Below are positions 13,458-39,402 of a DNA stretch of 64,000 nt, one piece after another. Position 1 is the stretch's first letter; every line of letters starts with the position of its first letter. The translations under genes were made by a program, and so were the position numbers. The notes below the pieces were generated by a model, which saw nothing but the letters and a program-made list of their open reading frames with translations, did no database searches and was not told the DNA's origin. The DNA is from a virus, in the IMG/VR virus record IMGVR_UViG_3300010384_000005. One strand, given 5' to 3'.

Positions 13458-14265
13458 GCTGCACTGCGGGTGTAGCCATTCCCCTCACGGGGCGCCATAA
13501 GCCAAGGATACGGTGTCACCGAGGCCCTTGGAGCCAATATGAGGCTCTGCCCGGACTGATCCCCGGAAGCACCCTCGGATCGGAGCGAGAGCTTCGGTCG
13601 ACGAAATCTGGAAAGACCCTACTGCATTCGTCTAGTCGGCAGGCTTCCAAACGCCGGCCCCTGCTGAGGTTGGTGCAGCACTCTTCCAGAGCCGGGTAAT
13701 GAAGGTCCTCGGAGAGATGGCTTTGTCTGATCTGCGGTCACCTGAACCCGGCAACAATTTGCTGCGATCCTCAAGGTGAGGTCTTAGCCTTCCAAGCTAA
13801 TAAGCCCGGTTCGATTCCGGGTCGCCGCTCCAATTCGGAAGATTTAACACATCTTCCCCGACATGTTATCGAAACGAGATTTCTTTGACATGTCGCGATA
13901 TCGAGGCGAATGCCTCAACGAGGGTGCCTCCTGTTAGCAAAGCGCAGGCGCAGAAAGATGAGGATATGCCCTCATAGGCCATAGCAATTCGCCCATATGG
14001 GCAAACGAGATCGGGAAGCAGCACGGATGGACGTGTACGGGCGAACGTCTTGGTAGCCTATGGACTGGATAGCCGCCGAACCCAAGCCGAGGCGGTATTA
14101 GAGCGCAGTAGCTGGTATCAAGCCCAGCCTTCCCGACTAATTCCTCACCAGAGGACAGGACGGCCCGCAGCGGGAATGCTCGCCTAAGCCGGATAGCCAA
14201 GGATTGGGGTTCGTGCCCGGTCACCGTCCTGAGTTATACGGTTTCCGCAAAAGCGGTATAACCGA
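13458..14265 (+). ncRNA. Large, densely structured ncRNA candidate (GOLLD-like) containing a tRNA
   Basis: About 810-nt gap with no credible + strand CDS. More than 20 stems read by eye, including long-range pairs 13607-13613/13684-13690, 13979-13984/14058-14063 and 14156-14163/14224-14231. Pseudoknots at 13556-13562/13577-13583, 14011-14018/14129-14136 and 14077-14083/14207-14213. tRNA in the middle. Confidence 0.6.
13761..13832 (+). tRNA. tRNA-Gly (anticodon TCC), atypical
   Basis: Acceptor GCTGCGA/TCGCCGC (one U-C mismatch), anticodon arm TTAGC-CTTCCAA-GCTAA, T arm CCCGG-TTCGATT-CCGGG, U73 and encoded CCA. Short D arm, 72 nt total. Confidence 0.85.
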
Positions 14266-27657: not shown

Positions 27658-28593
27658 ATGGGCTTCGCTCCGTCGCCTACGCAGTCGAACATTCTGACTG
27701 TGCTGCGATCCTTCCTGCTCGGTATCTTGCCGAGCGGAAACGCAAAGTTCACTGGTTCGATTGCTGGCAATACCCTGACCGTCACGGCGGTAACGGCGGG
27801 AGCAATCAGTTTCGGTGATGCCATCCTCGGTGAGGGCGTTTCCCCAGGCACGATAGTCACGGCGTTCGGGTCTGGATCAGGGGGCCTGGGGACATATACA
27901 CTCAGCGCCTCACAGACGCTGGCCAGCACGAAAATGTATACGGGAGTTGAAGTGATCGCGGCGCAGACAAACCGCGTTCCTGAGCCCTCTGTACCCGATT
28001 TCGTGACCATGACGCCAATCATGCAGACCCGTTTGGAAACGAACGTGGATACCTATGAGGATGTCTCGTTTACAGCCTCCATCGCTGGAACTGTCATGAC
28101 GGTTACCGCCGTAGCCTTTGGAACGATTGCGGTAGGGCAGATGGTATTCGGAGTCGGGTTGGCAAGCCCTACGAAGATCATTGCTTTCGGAACAGGCACG
28201 GGTGGGATCGGGACATACACCGTCACGCCCTCTCAAACCGTGACATCGGAAAAGATGGCCTCAGGCGGAGAAATCTTCCTCCAGGCCACAAAGGTCACCG
28301 TCCAATTGGATGTTCACGGCCCGAACAGTGCCGAGAATGCACAGACGATATCAACGCTATTCCGCGATGAATATGCGGTTCGGGCGTTCGCTGCCAAGGG
28401 CTTCGATGTCACGCCGCTGTTTGTGAGTGATCCCCGGCAGTTGCCATTTGAGAATGAGAACGCCCAAGTCGAAAACCGCTGGGTGATCGATGCTGTTATG
28501 CAGGCGAACCAAGTGATCAGGGCGCCGCAGGAATTCGCAGACCAACTCGACATCACCTTGATCGAGGTCGATGCGGCATATCCAGCCGCCTAA
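27658..28593 (+). CDS. Tail terminator-like protein with two inserted beta modules
   Basis: VI.AQ.NRVPEP...F..MTP and VQLDVHGP...A....TLFRD core just upstream of the sheath. Two [12 protein letters not shown] modules. Confidence 0.78.
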
Positions 28594-28627
28594 TCCATCC
28601 ACAATCAGATCGAAAGGAAAACGGGCG

Positions 28628-30589
28628 ATGACGTCGATCCCGGCCTCACAAATCGTGCGCGTCAATCCGAACGTGCTCAATGCCGGCGGCAGTGGGCTCG
28701 TTCTTAACGGCCTGATGCTGACCCAGAATACGCAGGTGCCGACCGGAACGGTTTTGTCGTTTCCGAACGACGGCGTTTCTGTCTCCAACTATTTCGGGCC
28801 ATCGGCGCTGGAGACCGCGATTGCGGCCATCTATTTCAACGGCTTCAACACATCCACGCAGAAGCCCGGTGAAATCCTGTTTGCGCAGTATAATTCCGCA
28901 TCTGTGGCGGCTTATCTGCGTGGCGGCCCGGTCAATCAGTTGACGATCCCGCAGCTTCAGGGTCTTTCTGGTTCGCTGTCCATTGTCATGGATGGCTACA
29001 CCTATTCTGCCGCCAGCATCAATCTTTCTGGCGCCACGAGCTATTCTGCCGCTGCCACGCTCATTCAGACGGGCCTCAATACGGCCCTTCCGTCTGCCGC
29101 AAGCGTGACGGGTTCGATCGCCGCAGGCACCGCATCTGTGACCGCCTCCATCGCTGGCAATACCATGTATGTGACGGCCGTCAGCTCTGGTACACTGGTT
29201 GTGGGCGCGGTTCTGACTGGTACGGGTGTGACCGCAGGCACTCAGATCGATGCGCAGATTTCCGGCACGCCTGGTGGCATCGGTGAATATGCGGTATCGA
29301 AGACGCAGGTCATTGCGAGCGAAACTATTACCGCTTCCTATGGCACCTTGACCGTGACAGCCGTTTCGTCTGGCACCCTGTCTGTCGGTCAAACCATCAC
29401 TGGCGGCACCACGCTTGCCAATACCAACATTACCGCCCTTGGTACGGGCACGGGCCTTACTGGCACCTATATCGTCAATCTGACGCAGACCGTCTCCAGC
29501 GGATCACTGACGGCCACCGGATCTGCCCTCGCGGTATCCTTTGACTCTGTCTCTGGCGGCTTCGTCATCAAGTCCGGCTCGCGTGGCAATCAGTCCACCG
29601 TTGCTTATGCAACCGGTACTCTTGCCGCCCCGATCTTCGTGACACAGGTAACCGGTGCAGTTCTTTCTCAGGGTGCCACAGCGACCAGCCCTTCTGCGTT
29701 CATGACCTCCATCACGAACCTTACCCAGAATTGGGCAACGTTCATGACGCTCTTTGATCCAGACAATGGTTCGGGCTGCGTTCAGAAGCTGGAATTCGCT
29801 GTTTGGACCAACAATCAGAACAAGCGTTGGGCCTACATCGCGTGGGATACCGATGTCACCCCGACGGCAAGCAACAATGCCACGACGAGCTTCGGCAACA
29901 TCGTGCAGGCAGCGAACTATGATGGCATCGCCCCGATCTATCAGCCGCTCAACGCCTCTACGCCGGCCGTCGATATCGCGGCTTTTGTCTGTGGCATCGC
30001 GGCCTCAATTGACTTCACGGCATTGAACGGGCGCATCACCTTTGCCTTCCGCGGCCAGGATGGCCTTATCGCTGGCGTCACCGATGCCACGACGGCCAAT
30101 AACCTGACGGCTAATGGCTACAACTTCTATGGTGCATACGCGACGGCTAATCAGCAGTTCGTGGAATTCCAAACCGGTCTCGTCTCAGGTGAGTTCCAGT
30201 GGCTGGACAGTTATGTCAACCAGATTTGGTTGAATAATGCTCTTCAGCTCGCCCTTATGGAGCTTCTGCAGAACGTCAATTCCATTCCCTACAATAATCA
30301 AGGGTATGGACTGATGCGGGCCGCATGCCTTGATCCCATCCAGGCAGCTTTGAACGCTGGCGTCATCCGAGCCGGCGTTACGCTCTCCAATCTTCAGAGA
30401 GCGCAGGTCCGCAACGCTACTGGAACCGATACCGCTTGGCAGGTCATTCAGCAGCAGGGTTGGTATCTCCAGATCGTTGATGCTGCTCCGCAGGTCAGGC
30501 AGGCCCGTCAGTCGCCTCCGAGCACCTTCTATTATACAGATGGTCAATCGGTGCAAACCATTGTTTTGAATAGCATTTTGGTCCAGTAA
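28628..30589 (+). CDS. Tail sheath protein (DUF3383)
   Basis: [54 protein letters not shown]. Confidence 0.9.
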
Positions 30590-32418: not shown

Positions 32419-34671
32419 TTGGGGACCATAATCGATAGCCTCATCGTTGCGCTAAAATTAGACCCTTCTGAATATAAGAAGGGTTCGAAAGAGGTCGCTG
32501 ACACCTCGAAAAAGACCACCGAGCAAGTCGTCAAGGGCGGCAAGTCCATTGAGGAGTCGAGCAAAAAGGCTGCCGACTCCATCAGCAAGGTCACACGTGA
32601 AGTCCTCGGGCTTTACGCCGTCTTTGTTGGTGCCCGCGGGATCAAGGAGTTCATCGGTGATCTTATAGGGGCCGACGCTGCCCTTGGCCGGTTCTCGCGT
32701 AATCTCAACACCTCTCCACAAACGCTCTATGCATGGGGCGCAGCTGCCGAGCGGGTAGGCGGCTCGAACGAAGCCACAGCGGCAACGTTCGAGCGCATCG
32801 GCAAGGCGCTTTTCGATTTGCACCGCAACGGGCAGGCCCTTCCGAAGGAATATGCCCAGCTTCAAGCCCTTACGGGCATGAACATCGACCGTGATCACGG
32901 TGTCGACAAGTTCCTTCAAGATACCGCTGCTGCGCTACAGCGGCTCAACCAGATAGATCCGTCGCAGGTTCATTTCATCGCCCAGGGCATGGGCATCGAT
33001 GATGGAACCGCGAACGTCATGATCAAATACGGTTCAGCCATTGGAGCCTATATTGATCAGTTGAAGAAACTCGCGCCGCAGAACGAAGCCATCAAGGCGG
33101 CACAAGAGCTTCAGGACAAGTGGGCGACACTTCAGCAGACCGCCGTCAATCTCGCTAATACCATTCTCGATAAACTTGGCCCTCAGATCGCCGATCTTCT
33201 CACGAAGATGACGGATTGGATCTCCAAGAATGGAGATTGGATCAACTCTGGCATTGTAAAAGCCGTTGGCGAGTTCGCCGATTATCTGAAGTCCATCGAC
33301 TGGAATGCGGTCGGGCAGGGCTTGAAGGAATTTGGCAATGACGCAAAGGCTGTGGCTGATGCGCTAGGAGGGGTAGTTCGAGCAACTGAAATCCTGATTG
33401 GTCTTTGGGCTGGCGGCAAAGCTCTTGGGATGATCGGGAGCCTTCGCAATATCATTGGCGGCGGCAGTGCATCTGCGGCGTCTGCAGGCGCAAGCAGTGG
33501 CCTGATGGCGTTCCTCGGCAAAGCTGGAATTGTGGCAGCTGGCATCGGAACTGCCATCTGGGGAGCCGAAAAATATAAGGAAAGGCATGCAGCGGGCCAA
33601 ATCGAAACCCAAGAGCAGCAAGATCGGATCGATAAATTCAATCAATGGCGTTCTGGTCATAAAGGGGCGTTCTCTTCTTGGCTGGACTCACTATTTGGCG
33701 GGAACAAAGATGCCAGCGGCCATGCTGATGCTTTGCAGAATAATCCGGCTTTGGGAGCTGCGGTTCTCGGCAACGGTAGGGATGGCGCACTAGATTCGTT
33801 CCTTGGCGGTACGGTAGATGGTCGTCCAATCTCTAAATCTAATCCTGTTCCGGTAGTCGCCGCTGATCAGCAGAGCGGTGGCGGGTTCTGGAGCAAGCTT
33901 GGAAGCGCCATCGGCAGTTTCTTTGGTGGTGGTGCTACTTCCGGAGCAGCATCGGCGGGTTCTTCAGATAATAGTAGCGGGCCAGTACAAGCGATTGGCC
34001 CATCTGCCGGCGAGAGAGGCTGGTGGACAAAAGATCGTCAAAAACATGCCTTTGACCGGCTTACTAAAGAAGCTGGATTAAGCCCACAGGGAGCGAAAGC
34101 ACTTATTTCTCGCTGGATGAATGTTGAAGCATCTGGCGGCCCGGGCGAAGTTAATTCGATCGGCGCTACTGGTATTGCCCAAATGCTCGGCCCTCGAAAG
34201 CGCCGCTTGCTCCAGATGGCGCAAGAGCGGGGTGTTCCCGTCAAAGATTATGATCTTCAACTCAGCCACATTATTGAAGAGCTTAACGGTTCCGAGGCAA
34301 GGGCGGCACAACGGTTGCGGAGCGCCAAGACGGCTGAGGAAGGCGCGATTGGTGCAAGTATGTTTGAACGGGCTGAGGGATATAATTCCCTGACGGGTCG
34401 GGATAACTTCACCGGGCGCACATTGGGTGGCATGCGTGGAATGGATAAATTCGTTGGGGATACTCTTGCTGGAGCTGCCCTAAGTTCCCGCCTGTCGACC
34501 ATTTCCAATGATAACCGTTCATCCACATCTACAACATCGCATCAATTCAGCGTTGGGCAGATCAACGTCAACGCTCCCAACGCGACGGATGCTCAGGGTA
34601 TCGCGAGCAAGGTCACGGATGCGATGGTTAGATCTACGGCTGCAGCAACGGCAAATTATGGACCACGATAA
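32419..34671 (+). CDS. Tape measure protein with C-terminal tail-lysozyme domain
   Basis: TIIDSLIVALKLD start and a helical A/G-rich body. C-terminal GLSPQGAKALIS...E.......GATGIAQ...R...QL..IIEEL...FER resembles Phage_lysozyme2. Confidence 0.88.
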   Translation: MGTIIDSLIVALKLDPSEYKKGSKEVADTSKKTTEQVVKGGKSIEESSKKAADSISKVTREVLGLYAVFVGARGIKEFIGDLIGADAALGRFSRNLNTSPQTLYAWGAAAERVGGSNEATAATFERIGKALFDLHRNGQALPKEYAQLQALTGMNIDRDHGVDKFLQDTAAALQRLNQIDPSQVHFIAQGMGIDDGTANVMIKYGSAIGAYIDQLKKLAPQNEAIKAAQELQDKWATLQQTAVNLANTILDKLGPQIADLLTKMTDWISKNGDWINSGIVKAVGEFADYLKSIDWNAVGQGLKEFGNDAKAVADALGGVVRATEILIGLWAGGKALGMIGSLRNIIGGGSASAASAGASSGLMAFLGKAGIVAAGIGTAIWGAEKYKERHAAGQIETQEQQDRIDKFNQWRSGHKGAFSSWLDSLFGGNKDASGHADALQNNPALGAAVLGNGRDGALDSFLGGTVDGRPISKSNPVPVVAADQQSGGGFWSKLGSAIGSFFGGGATSGAASAGSSDNSSGPVQAIGPSAGERGWWTKDRQKHAFDRLTKEAGLSPQGAKALISRWMNVEASGGPGEVNSIGATGIAQMLGPRKRRLLQMAQERGVPVKDYDLQLSHIIEELNGSEARAAQRLRSAKTAEEGAIGASMFERAEGYNSLTGRDNFTGRTLGGMRGMDKFVGDTLAGAALSSRLSTISNDNRSSTSTTSHQFSVGQINVNAPNATDAQGIASKVTDAMVRSTAAATANYGPR

Positions 34672-35312
34672 TGGCATTCCCGGTAAACGTTCCCCGCGTG
34701 CCGGGAGTGCCGTCCGTTCTATTTGCGGCGGGCGCGGGACAAATCATCTCATTACTGACGCAGGACGCCGTCTCGCTCTTCAGCGGTGGTTCCCTACAGC
34801 AGCCATGGGGTATCTATCTGGGTGGCTCGCCAGTCGTCTTGGCTGACAACGTCGTCTCGTTCGATTTCAGACAGCAATATACGATCTCTGATTACCCCGT
34901 AGAGCAGGGGGCCTTTGCTTCCTACAATAAAGTGCAAATCCCGTTTGATGGCCGATTCCGGTTCTCCACGGGCGGATCTGATGATGATAAGTCCGCATTC
35001 GTCCAATCGATACGCGATATCATCGGTGACCTGAATCTCTATACAATCGTCACGCCGATCGCGATCTATTCGAGTGTAAACCTCACGCATTGGGATTACG
35101 GACAGACGGCTACCAATGGCGTAGGGTTGCTCACCATAGATGTCTGGACGGAGGAGGTGCGCGAAACAGGCGTGCAGGCGATGTCCAACACTCAGAGCCC
35201 TACTGCTGCCTCGCAGGTAAACGGTGGAACGGTTCAACCGGTTTCCGCTACCTCATTGCAGTCGGCCCAAACTGGCGCGATACGGTCCTCTGGCGGCCGA
35301 TTGGCGGGATAG
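34671..35312 (+). CDS. Baseplate/distal tail protein
   Basis: WGIY...ISDYPVEQGAFASYNKV motif, follows the tape measure. Confidence 0.8.
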   Translation: MAFPVNVPRVPGVPSVLFAAGAGQIISLLTQDAVSLFSGGSLQQPWGIYLGGSPVVLADNVVSFDFRQQYTISDYPVEQGAFASYNKVQIPFDGRFRFSTGGSDDDKSAFVQSIRDIIGDLNLYTIVTPIAIYSSVNLTHWDYGQTATNGVGLLTIDVWTEEVRETGVQAMSNTQSPTAASQVNGGTVQPVSATSLQSAQTGAIRSSGGRLAG

Positions 35313-35317
35313 CAAAC

Positions 35318-35620
35318 ATGTTGATTGTTCCGCTACAGGCCGTTCCAAATCAGACGGTTACCGTGACGCTCAATGATCAGGTCACGCAAATCAATGTCTA
35401 TCAGACCTATAATGGCCTGTTTATCGATATTTATTTGGAAAATGATCTCATCATAGGTGGCGTGATTTGTGAAAATCAAAATCGCATCATCAGGTCGGCC
35501 TATCTCGGTTATTCCGGTGATCTGGCATGGATCGATGTTCAGGGAGCAAGCGATCCGGATTATACTGGGATCGGAACGCGGTTCTTTCTGGCATATCTCA
35601 CGCCGGAAGAATTGGCTTAG
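35318..35620 (+). CDS. Baseplate protein (plug-like)
   Basis: IVPLQAVPNQT.TV.L...G...D..G..DP.Y.G.G.RF.L.Y. Confidence 0.8.
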   Translation: MLIVPLQAVPNQTVTVTLNDQVTQINVYQTYNGLFIDIYLENDLIIGGVICENQNRIIRSAYLGYSGDLAWIDVQGASDPDYTGIGTRFFLAYLTPEELA

Positions 35621-35624
35621 GCCA

Positions 35625-36239
35625 TCACTGATCCCAGTTGAAATCCATTGTGCCCATGTTGGTTTCAACTGAAACATTCAAAGGGTTGCATTCATAGGAG
35701 CCAACTGCGAAGCGCTCGCCATATGTCAAGTTTAATTGATTGTCCGGCGTCTCAGGCATAAGCAAGCGAGAAGTATATCTGCATTTCCCCTTGTTTACAG
35801 TTACCGACTTGACGGTGATACTATTTTCAAGGCTCGTTAAAATGACAGTCCAGTTGTCCATTGGTGAGAAGTTTGGGGACCCGATCGCGGATGGAATATT
35901 GTATTTATTAGCGACCAAACCATTTTCCGCGCCCATGTTCCAGTGAACATCGGTGTTCCCTCTAGGAGTATCAATAACGACTTCGATCGGGTCGCAATAA
36001 TACGTGCCGGCGTTAAAGGTCTGGCCGAATTTCAGGTTGATTGGCAGCGGAACCCCACCGCCATGCAAGCAGCCGCGATTCACATCGATATGATCGATTG
36101 TTAAATCATCGACTTTCGACGTGATTTGTAGATCGAAGTATCGGAAATCGCCGCTTACTGGTTGCTTGTTGGCGGCGAATGTATCTGCTTTTACGGGGAA
36201 AGCAGCAAGACATAAACTTGCGAATAAAAAAGCGCGCAT
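35625..36239 (-). CDS. Exported protein with two tandem Cys-containing beta domains (moron)
   Basis: Signal peptide MRAFLFASLCLAAFPVKA. Repeated VN(R/K)GxC...L.(F/Y)G..F..G.Y.C.P..V...T..G....W. Antisense to the late operon, GGAGG RBS. Confidence 0.75.
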   Translation of the reverse strand: MRAFLFASLCLAAFPVKADTFAANKQPVSGDFRYFDLQITSKVDDLTIDHIDVNRGCLHGGGVPLPINLKFGQTFNAGTYYCDPIEVVIDTPRGNTDVHWNMGAENGLVANKYNIPSAIGSPNFSPMDNWTVILTSLENSITVKSVTVNKGKCRYTSRLLMPETPDNQLNLTYGERFAVGSYECNPLNVSVETNMGTMDFNWDQ

Positions 36240-36293
36240 GACAGCCTCCAGGGGAGGCCATCATTATCCTGAATCGCGTAAAAGTCGATATGG

Positions 36294-36494
36294 CTATTCT
36301 TTCAGATAGGCATTCCCAATAAGCCAGTCTCGAAGGATGCGGCGGATGGCTTCTTGACGAGTGATGCCTTGATTTTCCGTCGCGAACTTATCGATCGCGC
36401 TCAGATCGGGCTCTTGAACACGAAGCACAATCCGATCGCTTTCTACGCTCGGACGGCCTCGTGATTTTTTGGGCACATTAATTGTTGACGACAT
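36294..36494 (-). CDS. CopG/ribbon-helix-helix regulator
   Basis: KKSRGRPS...IVLRVQEPDLSAIDKFA....ITRQEAIRRIL. Confidence 0.8.
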   Translation of the reverse strand: MSSTINVPKKSRGRPSVESDRIVLRVQEPDLSAIDKFATENQGITRQEAIRRILRDWLIGNAYLKE

Positions 36495-36585
36495 GAATAA
36501 AAGGTGACATAAAATAATCAGCCGCGCAAGATGCTACCAACATCTAACGCGGCCTAACCGAAACCGAACTTTACAGGAGTTCGAT

Positions 36586-36747
36586 ATGGCTAAATCATCT
36601 ATATCTCTTTCTTCGCTTTTCCGTAACCCTGCAGTTCGCGATGCTTTTGAGCGAGCTGAGCGCGATAATGGCGCGGCTTTCGTAATCTTGGCTCCGAAGT
36701 CCCCCACCTTAGGTGGTGGCGCGGCTCGGGTTCTGGAGGTTGCGTGA
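36586..36747 (+). CDS. Small hypothetical protein (53 aa), first gene of the cassette
   Basis: Manual translation MAKSSISLSSLFRNPAVRDAFERAERDNGAAFVILAPKSPTLGGGAARVLEVA, AGGAG RBS. Confidence 0.6.
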   Translation: MAKSSISLSSLFRNPAVRDAFERAERDNGAAFVILAPKSPTLGGGAARVLEVA

Positions 36748-37118
36748 TGGATCGGAGGACAATTCTCAAGCATTTGCCATTTGCTGCTGCTATTCTCGCC
36801 GCACCCGCTGTAGTATCAGCTAAAATGAGCGAAACTCCATTGGAGCGCGTCAATCGCCTTTCGGAGGAGCTTGCAATCGCACTGGACGACTACTGGGATG
36901 GAAAAGCCCACGCCACAGTGTTCCCAGCCTCATCTGGCTACGGCATCAAAATGTCCGTGACTCACGTGGAGGTTGACAAGTTCACTCGTCTTGAACGTCA
37001 TACCGAGGGTCTGAAAAAGGCATTCGCGGAAATCTATCCTGCGAAGAAACTGAACGTCTACAACCAGTTCAAATCGGATGGCGGGACCATTGTCTTCGTT
37101 ACGGCGGAGGAAGTCTGA
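36747..37118 (+). CDS. Hypothetical protein with a Tat-like leader
   Basis: MDRRTILKHLPFAAAILAAPAVVSA. TGATG coupling on both ends. Confidence 0.65.
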   Translation: MDRRTILKHLPFAAAILAAPAVVSAKMSETPLERVNRLSEELAIALDDYWDGKAHATVFPASSGYGIKMSVTHVEVDKFTRLERHTEGLKKAFAEIYPAKKLNVYNQFKSDGGTIVFVTAEEV

Positions 37119-37783
37119 TGGCCGTGGCAAAGAAAGAAGAAATTGGAATCGAGCTTCCGCCGCTGGATATCCGGTTGATGGAAGTGACTGTAATCGGCGA
37201 CAGTCCGCTGATCGTGCATGCTTGGTCGGAAAAGGCCAAGAAGGAAATGCTGGACAAACAGATGAAGAAGGCAAAGCCGGCGAAAGAACCCAAGAACCCG
37301 CAGGCAGACTTCGAAGCTTCAATGTATCGCCTTGCTGATGGTGGATACGGCTTTCCAAGCGTTGCCTTCAAAGCTGCTGCTGTCACGGCTGGAACATCAG
37401 TCGCTGGTTTGACGAAGATCCAAGCACGGCAAGCATTCCATATTCTCGGTGAAGACGCTGACATTGCTGGTGTCTTCGAAGGCTCTAAATCGCGAGTTAA
37501 TTTGATCCGCATAGGCGGCACGTCGCCCACAATGCGTGAAGACATGGTTCGCGTCGGCATGGGTACAGCAGACTTGCGCTATCGCCCTGAGTTTTCAGAG
37601 TGGCATGCAAAGCTTCTCGTTCGATACAATGCTAACGTTTTGAGCGAAAGTCAGATCCTGAACCTACTCAATGTTGCCGGGTTTGCCGTCGGAGTCGGAG
37701 AATGGCGCCCCGAGAAGGACGGCCAATACGGCATGTTCCATGTCGCGACCGAAGCCGATCTTGTGAAACTGGAGGCCGCATGA
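37118..37783 (+). CDS. Stand-alone Cas7/RAMP-like protein (Vipr-like)
   Basis: RAMP motif order: beta1 EVTVIGDSPLIVH; FPSVAFKAA (compare IPGSSLKG of Csm3/Cas7); thumb EDMVRV...DLRYRPEF; C-terminal G-rich loop AGFAVGVGEWRPEKDGQYGMFHV. Confidence 0.75.
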   Translation: MAVAKKEEIGIELPPLDIRLMEVTVIGDSPLIVHAWSEKAKKEMLDKQMKKAKPAKEPKNPQADFEASMYRLADGGYGFPSVAFKAAAVTAGTSVAGLTKIQARQAFHILGEDADIAGVFEGSKSRVNLIRIGGTSPTMREDMVRVGMGTADLRYRPEFSEWHAKLLVRYNANVLSESQILNLLNVAGFAVGVGEWRPEKDGQYGMFHVATEADLVKLEAA

Positions 37784-38286
37784 TGCGCATCGCCGGTTTT
37801 GAATTCGCTGAAGGTGCTCGTTTCCAGGCTGGAGCATCGAAGGACGCCAAGCTCATTGGCGAGCATCTGGAAATGCTTAGGAAGAGGTTCAAGGGTGAAC
37901 TAACGCCCGAGGACGTTCTTGAAGACGCCAAGCATGACAATTCTCCTCTCCATTCGTTTTTCGAATGGAGCGACACCGAGGCGGCTCGGCAATATCGGTT
38001 ACAACAGGCAAGGGGACTGATCCGCGCTGTAGTTGCCGTTTATGTCCGGGAGGATCAACCAGCAGTTAGACAGAAAGCCTATGTTCATATTCCTGAGCCG
38101 AGTGCCCCGCATTATCGAGAGGCCTCGCATGCGATGTCTCAGGCAAAGACGCGAGAAATGGTGCTGAAGTCTGCCCTTGCAGGGCTCCATGCATGGAAGA
38201 AGAAATACAAGGATCTCCAAGAATTCGCAGCGCTGATTTCGATCATCGACAAAATCGATGAGAAATCACTTCAACCAGTAGCATGA
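37780..38286 (+). CDS. Partner protein of the RAMP-like gene (helical, unknown function)
   Basis: ATGA-coupled to the RAMP gene. GELTPEDVLEDAK..NSPLHSFFEWSD.EAA..YRLQQARGLIR motif. Confidence 0.78.
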   Translation: MMRIAGFEFAEGARFQAGASKDAKLIGEHLEMLRKRFKGELTPEDVLEDAKHDNSPLHSFFEWSDTEAARQYRLQQARGLIRAVVAVYVREDQPAVRQKAYVHIPEPSAPHYREASHAMSQAKTREMVLKSALAGLHAWKKKYKDLQEFAALISIIDKIDEKSLQPVA

Positions 38287-38339
38287 GACAGAGGGTTATG
38301 CCGAGAGTTACTTACAACCTCGGACGCGAAAGCGGACAT

Positions 38340-38481
38340 GGCAGGCAGGTCTAGTTGAGTTAAGTCGTGGTCAGGTGTGGACCGGCAGGCGTGTTTAGGC
38401 AACGTCAGTTGAGGCCAGTTAAGCCGAGTTATGGCAGGCGGGGTTAGGCCCGTTATGATTTGGCAAGCTCAGGCAAGCCAT
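38340..38481 (+). repeat. Pentamer array: three GGCA-delimited units of (GNY-NN)8-9, putative guide RNA array
   Basis: GGCA at 38340, 38384 and 38433, followed by 8, 9 and 9 pentamers. Position 1 is G in 25/26, position 3 is C/T in 25/26, and positions 4-5 vary. Confidence 0.85.
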
Positions 38482-38500
38482 TTCTTGGATGCATAATAGA

Positions 38501-38531
38501 AGGCGGTTCTTCGGAGCCGCCTTTTTCTTTT
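38501..38531 (+). terminator. Rho-independent terminator closing the array
   Basis: AGGCGGTTC-TTCG-GAGCCGCCT followed by TTTTCTTT. Confidence 0.85.
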
Positions 38532-38541
38532 GGAGTAAAGG

Positions 38542-39402
38542 ATGTCCTTCACCGAAAAGAAAATCACCGTTCAGTTCAATTTGGCAAACGGCTCATTCGG
38601 CGACGGCAAGAACAATACTGCGATCGTGACAGGTCTGCGTTGCTCGGCAAATATCGATGCTACTGGCGGAGTTTCGAGCAACAGAATGCAGTTAGCAGTC
38701 TACGGTCTGCCCTTGTCGTTGATGAACCAGTTGAGCACGGTCGGAACCCAGTACAACTCGCTCTATAAGAATAGCATTACCGTTGAAGCTGGCGACGATA
38801 CCACAGGAATGTCTCTTGTTTTTGGAGGTGTGATTTTTTCCGCATTCGTAGACGCTCAGAACATGCCAGATGTAGCGTTTCGTGTTCAGGCGGCTCCCGG
38901 CCCATTCCAAGCAGTGAAACCCGTTCCCGCCCTAAGCATAAAGGGCTCTGCGGATGCTGCCGGGATGATGGGTAATCTCGCTAAGCAGATGGGGCTAGCC
39001 TTCGAGAACAACGGCGTTCAAGTGAAGTTAGCAAATCCGTATTTCGGCGGAACGGCTTGGACGCAGGCCATGGCGATAGCACGTCACGGCAATTTCGACC
39101 TGATCTACGAGCCGAACAAGATGGTGATCTCTCCACGAGGGCAGCCGCGGCAGGGGGATGCCATCCTGATCTCGCCCGATACCGGACTGGTCGGCTATCC
39201 GATGTTTTCGGAAAACATGGTTGTTGTTCGCTGCCTGTTTAATCCGGCGGTAAAGCAACTTTCTCTTGTTGAGGTCAAAAGCGACCTCACGCCGGCCAAC
39301 GGCAAATGGCAGGTCAAGAGCATCACCTATGAATTGGAATCGCAGACCCCCGGAGGGCGGTGGTTCATGGTCCTCGAACTGATCGCTATAGGAACACAAT
39401 AG
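38542..39402 (+). CDS. Baseplate hub protein
   Basis: MSF..K.I...F.L...I...GL..S.MN.LS...I..DTGLVGYP...W.V....Y.LES....G.WF. GGAG RBS. Confidence 0.85.
   Translation: MSFTEKKITVQFNLANGSFGDGKNNTAIVTGLRCSANIDATGGVSSNRMQLAVYGLPLSLMNQLSTVGTQYNSLYKNSITVEAGDDTTGMSLVFGGVIFSAFVDAQNMPDVAFRVQAAPGPFQAVKPVPALSIKGSADAAGMMGNLAKQMGLAFENNGVQVKLANPYFGGTAWTQAMAIARHGNFDLIYEPNKMVISPRGQPRQGDAILISPDTGLVGYPMFSENMVVVRCLFNPAVKQLSLVEVKSDLTPANGKWQVKSITYELESQTPGGRWFMVLELIAIGTQ

What the first reader, a model, noticed from the sequence alone, without database searches (positions are those of the whole stretch)
38344..38481. Decoded NN strings give three AT-rich gapped target patterns
Seen: NN strings are U1 AG,TA,GA,AA,GT,CA,GT,CC; U2 GT,TA,AA,CA,GA,CA,AA,GA,AT; U3 GG,TA,CC,AT,TT,AA,CA,AA,AT. 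Of 52 NN bases, 35 are A/T, well above the mostly GC-rich background. The second NN is TA in all three units. Inference, assuming every third target base is skipped: targets are AGnTAnGAnAAnGTnCAnGT(nCC), GTnTAnAAnCAnGAnCAnAAnGA(nAT) and GGnTAnCCnATnTTnAAnCAnAA(nAT). AT richness points to promoter or operator regions, for example the cI/cro switch of rival prophages. The last NN may belong to the boundary, since AT also precedes the first GGCA. I found no convincing self-target in the intergenic regions I checked by eye.
Basis: inference. Interest (0 to 1): 0.8.

Follow-up and report, generated by a model that had tools for sequence, protein, structure and literature searches.

The report
Phage VIPR guide RNAs, targets decoded
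The three five-letter-repeat units are guide RNAs of a phage VIPR system, a CRISPR-related DNA-silencing device first described in 2026, and they spell conserved codons of head and tail genes of rival phages rather than AT-rich promoters, so this is a good new example of a known kind.

Summary
Observation confirmed. On the + strand, 38344-38481 holds three in-register pentamer units (triplet + NN) separated by GGCA phase breaks. The NN strings, the 35/52 A/T count and TA as second NN are exactly as stated.

The locus is a VIPR system (bioRxiv 10.64898/2026.04.26.720920, .720927, 2026.10.15.759431). It has a Vipr gene (37118-37783; its profile hits PDB 'SUSP1 Vipr protein', E 8e-9), an accessory gene, a structured leader, a 'staggered' array of three vrRNAs and a terminator. 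The scan has met VIPR before on other DNA.

- U3 matches the baseplate-hub gene of four VIPR-less sibling phages exactly and in codon register. The phage's own hub has 3 mismatches.
- U2 matches one invariant peptide (VYNQEHNEI) of a major head protein in 112 diverse viral contigs.
- U1 matches the Dit-like tail gene of a relative exactly, and two siblings at 14/16.
- Controls give background only: reversed NN order gave 6, 0 and 3 hits, and U2 with no skip gave 4.

The promoter/operator (cI/cro) inference is not supported, because every convincing hit is coding with the skipped base at the wobble position. The last NN belongs to the guide. This is a new member of a known kind.

The parts
37118..37783 (+). 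vipr gene (221 aa), Cas7-like RAMP subunit
   Evidence: A profile of 8 homologs hits PDB 36pp_D 'SUSP1 Vipr protein' at E 8.2e-9 over nearly the full length. H34, R156 and E195-W196-R197 align with SUSP1 H17, R138 and D177-W178-R179, the GGY-contact residues named in the paper. The AF2 model has pLDDT 79, and its top Foldseek hits are Csm3/Cas7 of type III and VII complexes. It falls in phrog_4652.
37780..38286 (+). accessory gene (vap-like, 168 aa from the ATGA overlap; a longer frame opens at 37702)
   Evidence: It is conserved next to vipr in 17 viral loci and falls in phrog_15946, unknown function. No Pfam, PDB-sequence or PDB-fold match was found.
38295..38339 (+). structured leader: two hairpins (38301-38323 and 38325-38335) ahead of the array
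   Evidence: It is conserved in relatives, with compensatory changes in 3 of 12 pairs. The whole gap folds with z -3.8 on the + strand only.
38340..38344 (+). boundary pentamer GGCAG; its last G is the first G of vrRNA U1
   Evidence: Boundaries are spaced 5k+4 nt. This fits the 'staggered arrays with 1 nt overlap' of the discovery preprint.
38344..38383 (+). vrRNA U1, 8 pentamers, decoded as AGnTAnGAnAAnGTnCAnGTnCC
   Evidence: It matches L147 exactly and in frame, in the Dit-like gene (phrog_1830) at peptide SYDKVQVP. The homologous sites of L023 and L025 have 2 mismatches of 16.
38384..38388 (+). boundary pentamer GGCAG between U1 and U2
   Evidence: Its AG is not matched in the targets.
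38388..38432 (+). vrRNA U2, 9 pentamers, decoded as GTnTAnAAnCAnGAnCAnAAnGAnAT
   Evidence: Of these, 112 lie in one 304-aa major head protein family (phrog_371) at peptide VYNQEHNEI, with 40 different wobble combinations.
38433..38437 (+). boundary pentamer GGCAG between U2 and U3
38437..38481 (+). vrRNA U3, 9 pentamers, decoded as GGnTAnCCnATnTTnAAnCAnAAnAT
   Evidence: It matches the baseplate-hub genes of L020, L022, L023 and L025 exactly and in frame, at peptide GYPMFNQNI. Two further in-register pentamers (TT, TG) do not match the targets.
38498..38535 (+). intrinsic terminator closing the cassette
   Evidence: A 12-pair GC-rich hairpin followed by a T run.
39193..39218 (+). own hub-gene site homologous to the U3 target, 3 of 18 mismatches (codons SE in place of NQ)
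   Evidence: It is in codon register with ORF 38542-39402.
34920..34942 (+). own Dit-like-gene site homologous to the U1 target, 4 of 16 mismatches (Ser TCC instead of AGY, Asn for Asp, Ile for Val)

Best explanation
The stretch 38344-38481 is a staggered array of three VIPR guide RNAs (vrRNAs). They are transcribed on the + strand with or after vipr (37118-37783) and its accessory gene, preceded by a structured leader and closed by a terminator.

By analogy with the characterised SUSP1 system (inferred here), one Vipr protomer binds each pentamer. It buries the G-G/T-Y triplet and presents the two NN bases, which pair with two adjacent bases of one DNA strand while every third target base is flipped out. 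The filament then sits on the DNA and blocks transcription.

Shown here by sequence: the three guides read like codons without their wobble base.
- U3 reads G-Y-P-M-F-N-Q-N-I of the baseplate-hub gene of VIPR-less sibling phages.
- U1 reads S-Y-D-K-V-Q-V-P of their Dit-like tail gene.
- U2 reads V-Y-N-Q-E-H-N-E-I in the most conserved block of the major head protein of an unrelated, widespread phage family.

All three guides have the sense of the coding strand. They would therefore pair with the template DNA strand and cannot pair with the mRNA.

The phage's own homologous sites differ at 3 of 18 positions (hub) and 4 of 16 (Dit-like). I infer this spares its own genes.

The likely biological role, also inferred, is to silence late structural operons of competing phages in the same cell.
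For: Published framework.

Membership of the protein.

Pentamer grammar: the window's 26 pentamers plus 50 clade guides (478 pentamers) have G1 96%, G/T2 93% and Y3 93%.

Exact 1-nt-skip hits in IMG/VR:
- U3 gave 8 hits, 4 of them in hub homologs that are 87-89% identical to the own hub.
- U2 gave at least 120 hits, 112 of them in one head-protein family. These have 93 distinct 326-nt contexts of median 76% nt identity.
- U1 gave 11 hits. One is in frame in a Dit-like homolog, and two siblings that also carry the exact U3 site have 14/16 sites.

Controls on the same database: reversed NN order gave 6, 0 and 3 hits, all but one in contigs of 27-47% GC and all but one with stop codons in the codon frame. 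U2 with 0 skip gave 4 hits.

Clade test: 9 of 50 guides have a site with <=2 mismatches at skip 1, against 1, 0 and 1 at other skips and 2.2% of shuffles.

Target phages: they lack vipr and carry a 430-470-nt slot where this phage has the 2.9-kb island.

Self sites.
Against: - There is no RNA evidence. No RNA run holds the locus, so transcription, processing at GGCA|G and loading on Vipr are all inferred.
- The guides are short (16-18 informative bases), and only exact matches could be scanned database-wide.
- U1 rests on one exact hit plus two 14/16 sites.
- No other guide of the clade converges on the U2 head-protein family. Its nearest named relatives come from a freshwater spring and from marine or freshwater alphaproteobacterial phages, so a shared host with this Rhizobiales-type phage is unproven.
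- U3 found no site at <=1 mismatch in 301 sampled Rhizobiaceae species genomes.
- The own hub site is 83% matched, above the 80% cut-off the preprint uses to call targets, so self-sparing is not demonstrated.
- The triplet is often GTY rather than GGY, and there is no 3' pseudoknot tail as in the characterised type II.
Confidence: 0.85

Rival explanations
1. One reading: the gapped guides are real, but they are aimed at AT-rich regulatory DNA (promoters, operators, the cI/cro switch) of rival prophages.
For: The NN strings are AT-rich (35/52 here; 60% clade-wide). The preprint reports that one Pseudomonas VIPR clade mostly targets lysis-lysogeny regulators. One guide of a relative (L016) matches a non-coding leader exactly.
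Against: All convincing hits of U1-U3 lie in structural-gene coding sequence in codon register. Hits outside those families are mostly in AT-rich contigs with stop codons, and are as frequent as control hits. AT richness can be explained without promoters: codon positions 1+2 are more AT-rich than position 3 in this phage, and the targeted peptides are rich in N, Q, E, K, Y and I.
Confidence: 0.04
2. The pentamer tract is a protein-binding scaffold or decoy RNA, like the triplet-plus-spacer sites that wrap around TRAP. In that case NN are mere spacers without target information.
For: The geometry, a conserved triplet plus 2 variable bases repeated 8-9 times, resembles TRAP sites (my own knowledge). 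This was my first idea.
Against: NN strings give exact in-frame matches to phage genes far above controls. The adjacent protein is a Vipr homolog, not a TRAP-like ring. Guide function of such RNAs has been shown experimentally in SUSP1.
Confidence: 0.03
3. The array is genuine VIPR, but the particular matches (especially U2 and U1) are coincidences of short A-rich patterns in a very large, redundant database, or the guides are decaying and no longer have living targets.
For: Guides carry only 16-18 informative bases. About 8-10 background hits per pattern are seen. One chance hit in an abundant family would bring many rows at once. There is no convergence of other guides on the U2 family. No Rhizobiaceae genome hit was found for U3.
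Against: Controls of equal composition gave 6, 0 and 3 scattered hits and no family cluster. U1 and U3 hit homologs of the very genes flanking the island, in frame, in the same sibling phages. U2 sits in the most conserved block of its target, with free variation only at the skipped bases.
Confidence: 0.08

Closest known systems
VIPR systems with staggered vrRNA arrays (fig. S18 of bioRxiv 10.64898/2026.04.26.720920)
   Same: It is phage-borne, with a lone Vipr RAMP gene plus one accessory gene. Guides are triplet/NN pentamers. Adjacent guides share one base, so the register shifts by one (GGCA|G). Targets obey the 1-nt skip rule.
   Different: The figure and data tables are not held, so the type number (I-VII) and the vap class could not be assigned. 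The preprint states that the hammerhead-interspersed arrays and single-vrRNA systems were confirmed by sRNA-seq, not the staggered ones. This clade uses GTY about one fifth of the time and has a conserved two-hairpin 5' leader.
Type II VIPR of Escherichia phage SUSP1 and the Pseudomonas fulva prophage (same preprints; PDB 36pp)
   Same: The Vipr is homologous, with conserved GGY-contact residues. Targets are wobble-aligned coding sequence in competing mobile elements. Relatives' guides are aimed at rival VIPR loci.
   Different: SUSP1 vrRNAs are about 100 nt with 9-16 repeats and an invariant 3' pseudoknot tail. Here the units are 40-45 nt with 8-9 repeats and no individual tail. The accessory protein shows no detectable similarity to anything solved. 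The predicted targets are virion genes of sibling and unrelated phages, rather than a satellite recombinase or lysogeny regulators.
Class 1 CRISPR-Cas effector backbones (Cas7/Csm3/Cmr4 filaments)
   Same: The RAMP fold matches: the top structural matches are Csm3 and type VII Cas7. One protomer binds per fixed number of guide bases, with periodic base flipping.
   Different: There is no CRISPR repeat-spacer array and no cas1/cas2 or other cas genes in the island. The guide is noncontiguous, with 2 of every 5 RNA bases paired.
TRAP-type triplet-repeat RNA sites (trp RNA-binding attenuation protein)
   Same: A conserved triplet separated by 2-nt spacers and repeated 8-11 times (my own knowledge).
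   Different: No TRAP-like protein is present. The 'spacers' carry target information.

Membership tests
VIPR system | A Vipr protein (minimal RAMP: RRM core, G-loop, thumb) encoded next to the RNA locus | tested here: met
   The profile hits PDB 'SUSP1 Vipr protein' at E 8.2e-9 over 173 of 196 positions. The G-loop GVG(D/E)WRP, the thumb Arg and the beta-sheet His are conserved (against residues named). The AF2 model matches Csm3/Cas7.
VIPR system | vrRNA made of at least 4 tandem pentamers, conserved GGY (or a related consensus) alternating with hypervariable NN | tested here: met
   The window has 26 pentamers in three registers. Clade triplets are G 96%, G/T 93% and C/T 93%. NN and unit number differ between loci whose accessory proteins are 88% identical. 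The second triplet base is T in 21%, a deviation from strict GGY.
VIPR system | NN strings specify DNA targets with one skipped base per unit | tested here: met
   Exact in-frame hits against controls. Skip 1 beats skips 0, 2 and 3 and shuffles in the clade. This is computational evidence only.
VIPR system | An accessory vap gene beside vipr | tested here: inconclusive
   A conserved 168-aa gene overlaps the vipr stop codon. Whether it belongs to vap1-6 cannot be checked, because no vap sequences are held, and it has no Pfam or PDB similarity.
VIPR system | vrRNAs are expressed, processed and bound by Vipr | not testable with these tools
   No RNA run holds the locus.
VIPR, staggered-array architecture | Adjacent vrRNAs overlap by 1 nt, so the end of one marks the start of the next | tested here: met
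   Boundaries are 44 and 49 nt apart (5k+4). The in-frame terminal pentamer GGCAG shares its last G with the next unit. The same holds in relatives. Processing sites are unverified.
VIPR type II (SUSP1-like) | Each vrRNA is capped by an invariant structured 3' tail (pseudoknot) | tested here: not met
   Units follow each other directly. The only conserved structure is a 5' leader with two hairpins, plus the terminator.
CRISPR-Cas | A repeat-spacer array with contiguous spacers, plus adaptation and effector cas genes | tested here: not met
   No such array was found. The neighbours are tail genes and unknowns.
TRAP-like ring-protein RNA site | A TRAP-family protein and information-free spacers | tested here: not met
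   The neighbouring proteins are a RAMP and an unknown helical protein. The NN carry target matches.

The most novel reading that the evidence does not exclude
A temperate Rhizobiales-type myophage may use one short guide (U2) to give its lysogen immunity against a whole, unrelated and globally abundant phage family. It would do this by sitting on nine invariant codons of that family's major head gene, while two other guides (U1, U3) disable VIPR-less siblings at the genes flanking the island's own insertion slot. Self and non-self would be told apart by as little as three central mismatches and a serine codon-family switch (AGY to TCN), the only synonymous change this code can see. The clade-wide A-rich bias of the second NN base, and the preference for AA and TA in the first two units, could then reflect a rule of target choice or register keeping not described for type II.
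Probability: 0.3. Interest if true: 0.55.

Novelty: new member of a known kind. Interest (0 to 1): 0.4.

Why it matters
The system itself was published in 2026, so the value here is as a worked natural example from a clade that has not been studied experimentally: staggered arrays in alphaproteobacterial phages.

- It gives three concrete, testable guide-target pairs, each with a built-in near-cognate control (the own hub at 3 mismatches, the own Dit-like gene at 4). These could calibrate the mismatch tolerance of short 8-9-unit guides.
- U2 illustrates why a code that skips wobble bases is useful. One 18-base guide matches 112 contigs that share only about 76% nucleotide identity around the site.
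- For the scan, it shows that AT-rich NN strings should not be read as a pointer to promoters.

Tried and rejected
- Rfam found nothing over the gap beyond weak terminator-like hits. TRF does not see the array.
- BLAST of the gap against phage and plasmid collections found only the terminator.
- My first idea, a TRAP-like protein-wrapping RNA, was dropped once the NN strings gave in-frame gene matches and the Vipr homology was shown.
- The genome search 'relatives' is not available for a virus record.
- U3 at <=1 mismatch found nothing in 301 sampled Rhizobiaceae species genomes. I did not repeat this for U1 and U2 because of its cost and low yield.
- Scanning the 50 clade guides against 120 loci of the U2 head-protein family showed no second guide converging on that family.
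- No usable sequencing run was found, one DNA run with a 0.07 share.
- The accessory protein was folded (pLDDT 73) but has no PDB fold or sequence match.
- A loose run-based pentamer caller was too noisy across overlapping registers. I replaced it with a caller bounded by GGCAG.
- The terminal pentamer's AG, and the two extra in-register pentamers after U3 (TT, TG), were tested as guide positions. They do not match the targets.
- The type number (I-VII) could not be assigned, because the figures and data tables of the preprint are not held.

Full report
**Setting.** The window is nearly all of a 66,966-b IMG/VR virus record. The finding lies in a 255-nt gene-free gap (38287-38541). On one side is a 194/168-aa ORF (phrog_15946, unknown function). 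On the other is the baseplate-hub gene 38542-39402 (phrog_196, PF22759). The gap closes a roughly 2.9-kb island (35621-38541) inserted into a myovirus tail and baseplate module, downstream of the tape-measure gene 32419-34671, the Dit-like gene 34671-35312 and a virion protein gene ending at 35620. The nearest cellular copy of the island's 221-aa gene is in Rhizobium leucaenae (81%), then Methylobacterium (69%).

**The observation.** GGCAGGC occurs at 38340, 38384 and 38433. From the second GGC of each, the sequence reads in strict 5-nt steps as triplet + NN.
- U1 (38344-38383) has 8 pentamers.
- U2 (38388-38432) has 9 pentamers.
- U3 (38437-38481) has 9 pentamers.

Each unit therefore ends with an in-frame pentamer GGCAG, whose last G is the first G of the next unit. 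A 12-pair terminator follows at 38498-38525. Only the + strand folds better than shuffles (z -3.8 against -1.1). Most of the 15 related viral loci that reach past the accessory gene carry the same design downstream of it: a conserved leader, then pentamer units punctuated by GGCAG. Unit number and NN differ even between loci whose accessory proteins are 88% identical.

**What it is.** I checked that lead myself. Three 2026 preprints describe Viral Interference Programmable Repeat systems. These consist of a minimal RAMP protein (Vipr), an accessory gene (vap), and vrRNAs of alternating GGY/NN pentamers, whose NN bases pair with DNA while every third target base is skipped. The preprints also mention 'staggered arrays' in which neighbouring vrRNAs overlap by 1 nt, which is what the GGCA|G junctions look like.

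The 221-aa gene 37118-37783 is a Vipr.
- A profile of eight homologs hits the PDB chain named 'SUSP1 Vipr protein' (36pp_D) at E 8.2e-9 over almost its whole length.
- H34, R156 and E195-W196-R197 fall on SUSP1 H17, R138 and D177-W178-R179, the residues that hold the GGY bases.
- The AF2 model (pLDDT 79) matches Csm3/Cas7 subunits.

The accessory protein folds as a mixed helical protein without any PDB match.

**Testing the decoding.** I converted the three NN strings to patterns with one wildcard between dinucleotides.

Within the window, U1 and U2 have no site at up to 3 mismatches. U3 has one site, 39193-39218, with 3 mismatches, in codon register inside the neighbouring hub gene.

Exact scans of 2.9 million IMG/VR contigs gave the following.
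- **U3** gave 8 hits. Four are in 55-56% GC contigs, in frame in hub genes 87-89% identical to the phage's own, at peptide GYPMFNQNI where the own protein has GYPMFSENM. The other four are AT-rich, and three of them have stop codons in the codon frame.
Of these, 112 lie in one 304-aa major head protein family (phrog_371; GenBank relatives are annotated as major capsid protein) at peptide VYNQEHNEI. They show 40 different combinations of the skipped bases. There are 93 distinct 326-nt contexts with a median nucleotide identity of 76%. The window has no homolog of this protein.
- **U1** gave 11 hits. One (L147, 64% GC) is in frame in a Dit-like gene (phrog_1830) 54% identical to the own one, at SYDKVQVP. 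The homologous sites of L023 and L025 match 14 of 16 positions, and both phages also carry the exact U3 site. Two guides therefore converge on the same siblings.

**Controls.** The same dinucleotides in reversed order gave 6 (U2), 0 (U3) and 3 (U1) hits. All but one lie in contigs of 27-47% GC, all but one have stop codons in the codon frame, and none form a gene-family cluster. U2 read contiguously (0 skip) gave 4 hits.

As an independent test I called 50 unique guides from the window and 27 related loci. I scanned them against 515 kb of those loci with the arrays masked.
- At skip 1, 9 guides have a site with <=2 mismatches, and 3 have a site with <=1.
- At skips 0, 2 and 3 the counts for <=2 mismatches are 1, 0 and 1.
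- Among 1500 NN-order shuffles, 33 reach <=2 mismatches and none reach <=1.

The one-base-skip reading is therefore supported both by the literature and by data from this clade.

The convincing targets are not promoters or operators. All three are coding sequence of virion genes, with the skipped base on the third codon position. This is the pattern reported for SUSP1 and explained as resistance to synonymous escape.

The AT excess is real: 67% here and 60% over 956 NN bases in the clade, against 47.6% at codon positions 1+2 of this phage's structural genes. It does not require regulatory DNA. The targeted peptides are rich in N, Q, E, K, Y and I, whose first two codon bases are A/T-rich. About 3% of 9-codon windows in the phage's own structural genes are as AT-rich as U2 and U3.

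The bias is strongest at the second NN base (A 43%, G 13%). I suspect this reflects avoidance of G runs that would blur the register, or easier strand separation. That is inference only.

CC, AT and AT match Pro, Ile and Ile codons in the targets. The last NN is variable in the clade, with AT in 6 of 49 guides. By contrast, the AG of the terminal GGCAG never matches.

**Self versus non-self.**
- The own hub site differs at three adjacent informative positions (15/18).
- The own Dit-like site differs at 4 of 16. Two of these come from using the TCC serine codon where the siblings use AGY.
- The five target-bearing records searched (G003, G004, G005, G306, G307) show no Vipr homolog. Where this phage has the island, the four hub-target siblings have a 430-470-nt slot with a small reverse-strand ORF, and L147 has a roughly 1.1-kb slot.

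All three guides have the sense of the coding strand, so they can pair with the template DNA strand but not with the mRNA. That fits DNA targeting.

**Limits.**
- Nothing here shows expression or processing.
- Only exact matches could be scanned at database scale.
- U1 is the weakest assignment.
- The host of the U2 family is unknown. Its named relatives are a spring-water virus (90%; that site has 3 mismatches) and distant Pelagibacter, Roseobacter and Caulobacter phages.
- No other clade guide converges on the U2 family.
- A sample of 301 Rhizobiaceae species genomes holds no U3 site at <=1 mismatch.
- The own hub site, at 83%, lies above the preprint's 80% calling threshold, so whether three central mismatches suffice for self-sparing needs a bench test.

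**Verdict.** The promoter/operator reading is wrong. The stretch is the guide array of a VIPR system of the staggered kind, a new member of a known kind. The scan has reported the same class on several other genomes.

Noticed in passing
L016:3635-3684 against L008:3587-3615: A 10-unit guide of a relative matches all 20 informative positions of the conserved leader hairpin in front of another phage's array. This is an apparent anti-VIPR guide. The window's own leader would match 16 of 20 by my own count.
   Followed up: partly
window 30116-30138 (tail sheath gene 28571-30589): The first guide of the closest relative (L003:3643, 8 units) matches this in-frame sheath site at 15 of 16 positions. 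The window's phage is thus itself a predicted target of a sibling's VIPR.
   Followed up: partly
L018:3616 against L011:3316 and L017:3274: An 11-unit guide matches the accessory (vap-like) gene of two other VIPR-carrying phages at 21 of 22 positions. L007:1595 matches the same gene of L005 at 18 of 20.
   Followed up: no
50 clade guides (window, L003-L018, L158-L165): NN composition is position-biased. The first unit is AA in 17 of 50 guides and the second is TA in 13 of 50. Overall the second NN base is 43% A and 13% G, and AG is the rarest dinucleotide. The AG result is partly an effect of the caller, which splits at GGCAG.
   Followed up: partly
L007, L009, L014, L017, L018 against window 38295-38339: Two unrelated leader types precede these arrays. 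One is the GCCGAGAGTT...AACCTCGG hairpin type seen in the window. The other is a GGAGCCGGATGCCC..CCGGCTGG type. L007 carries both, and L016 has two arrays, each with its own hairpin-type leader.
   Followed up: no
window 35621-37118; L168:382-849, L020, L023, L025, L147: The slot between the virion-protein gene and the hub gene is a variable cargo site. Four siblings carry a small reverse-strand ORF of about 130 codons, and L147 has a roughly 1.1-kb insert. The window carries a reverse 204-aa ORF (35625-36239) and a 124-aa ORF (36744-37118) ahead of vipr.
   Followed up: partly
window 37118-37783: Vipr homologs at 39-46% identity are annotated 'hypothetical protein' in 27 Mycobacterium and 5 Gordonia phage records, plus one Pseudomonas phage and one cyanophage, of the GenBank phage collection.
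   Followed up: no
window 13761-13829: The only Rfam match above the gathering score in the window is a tRNA.
   Followed up: no
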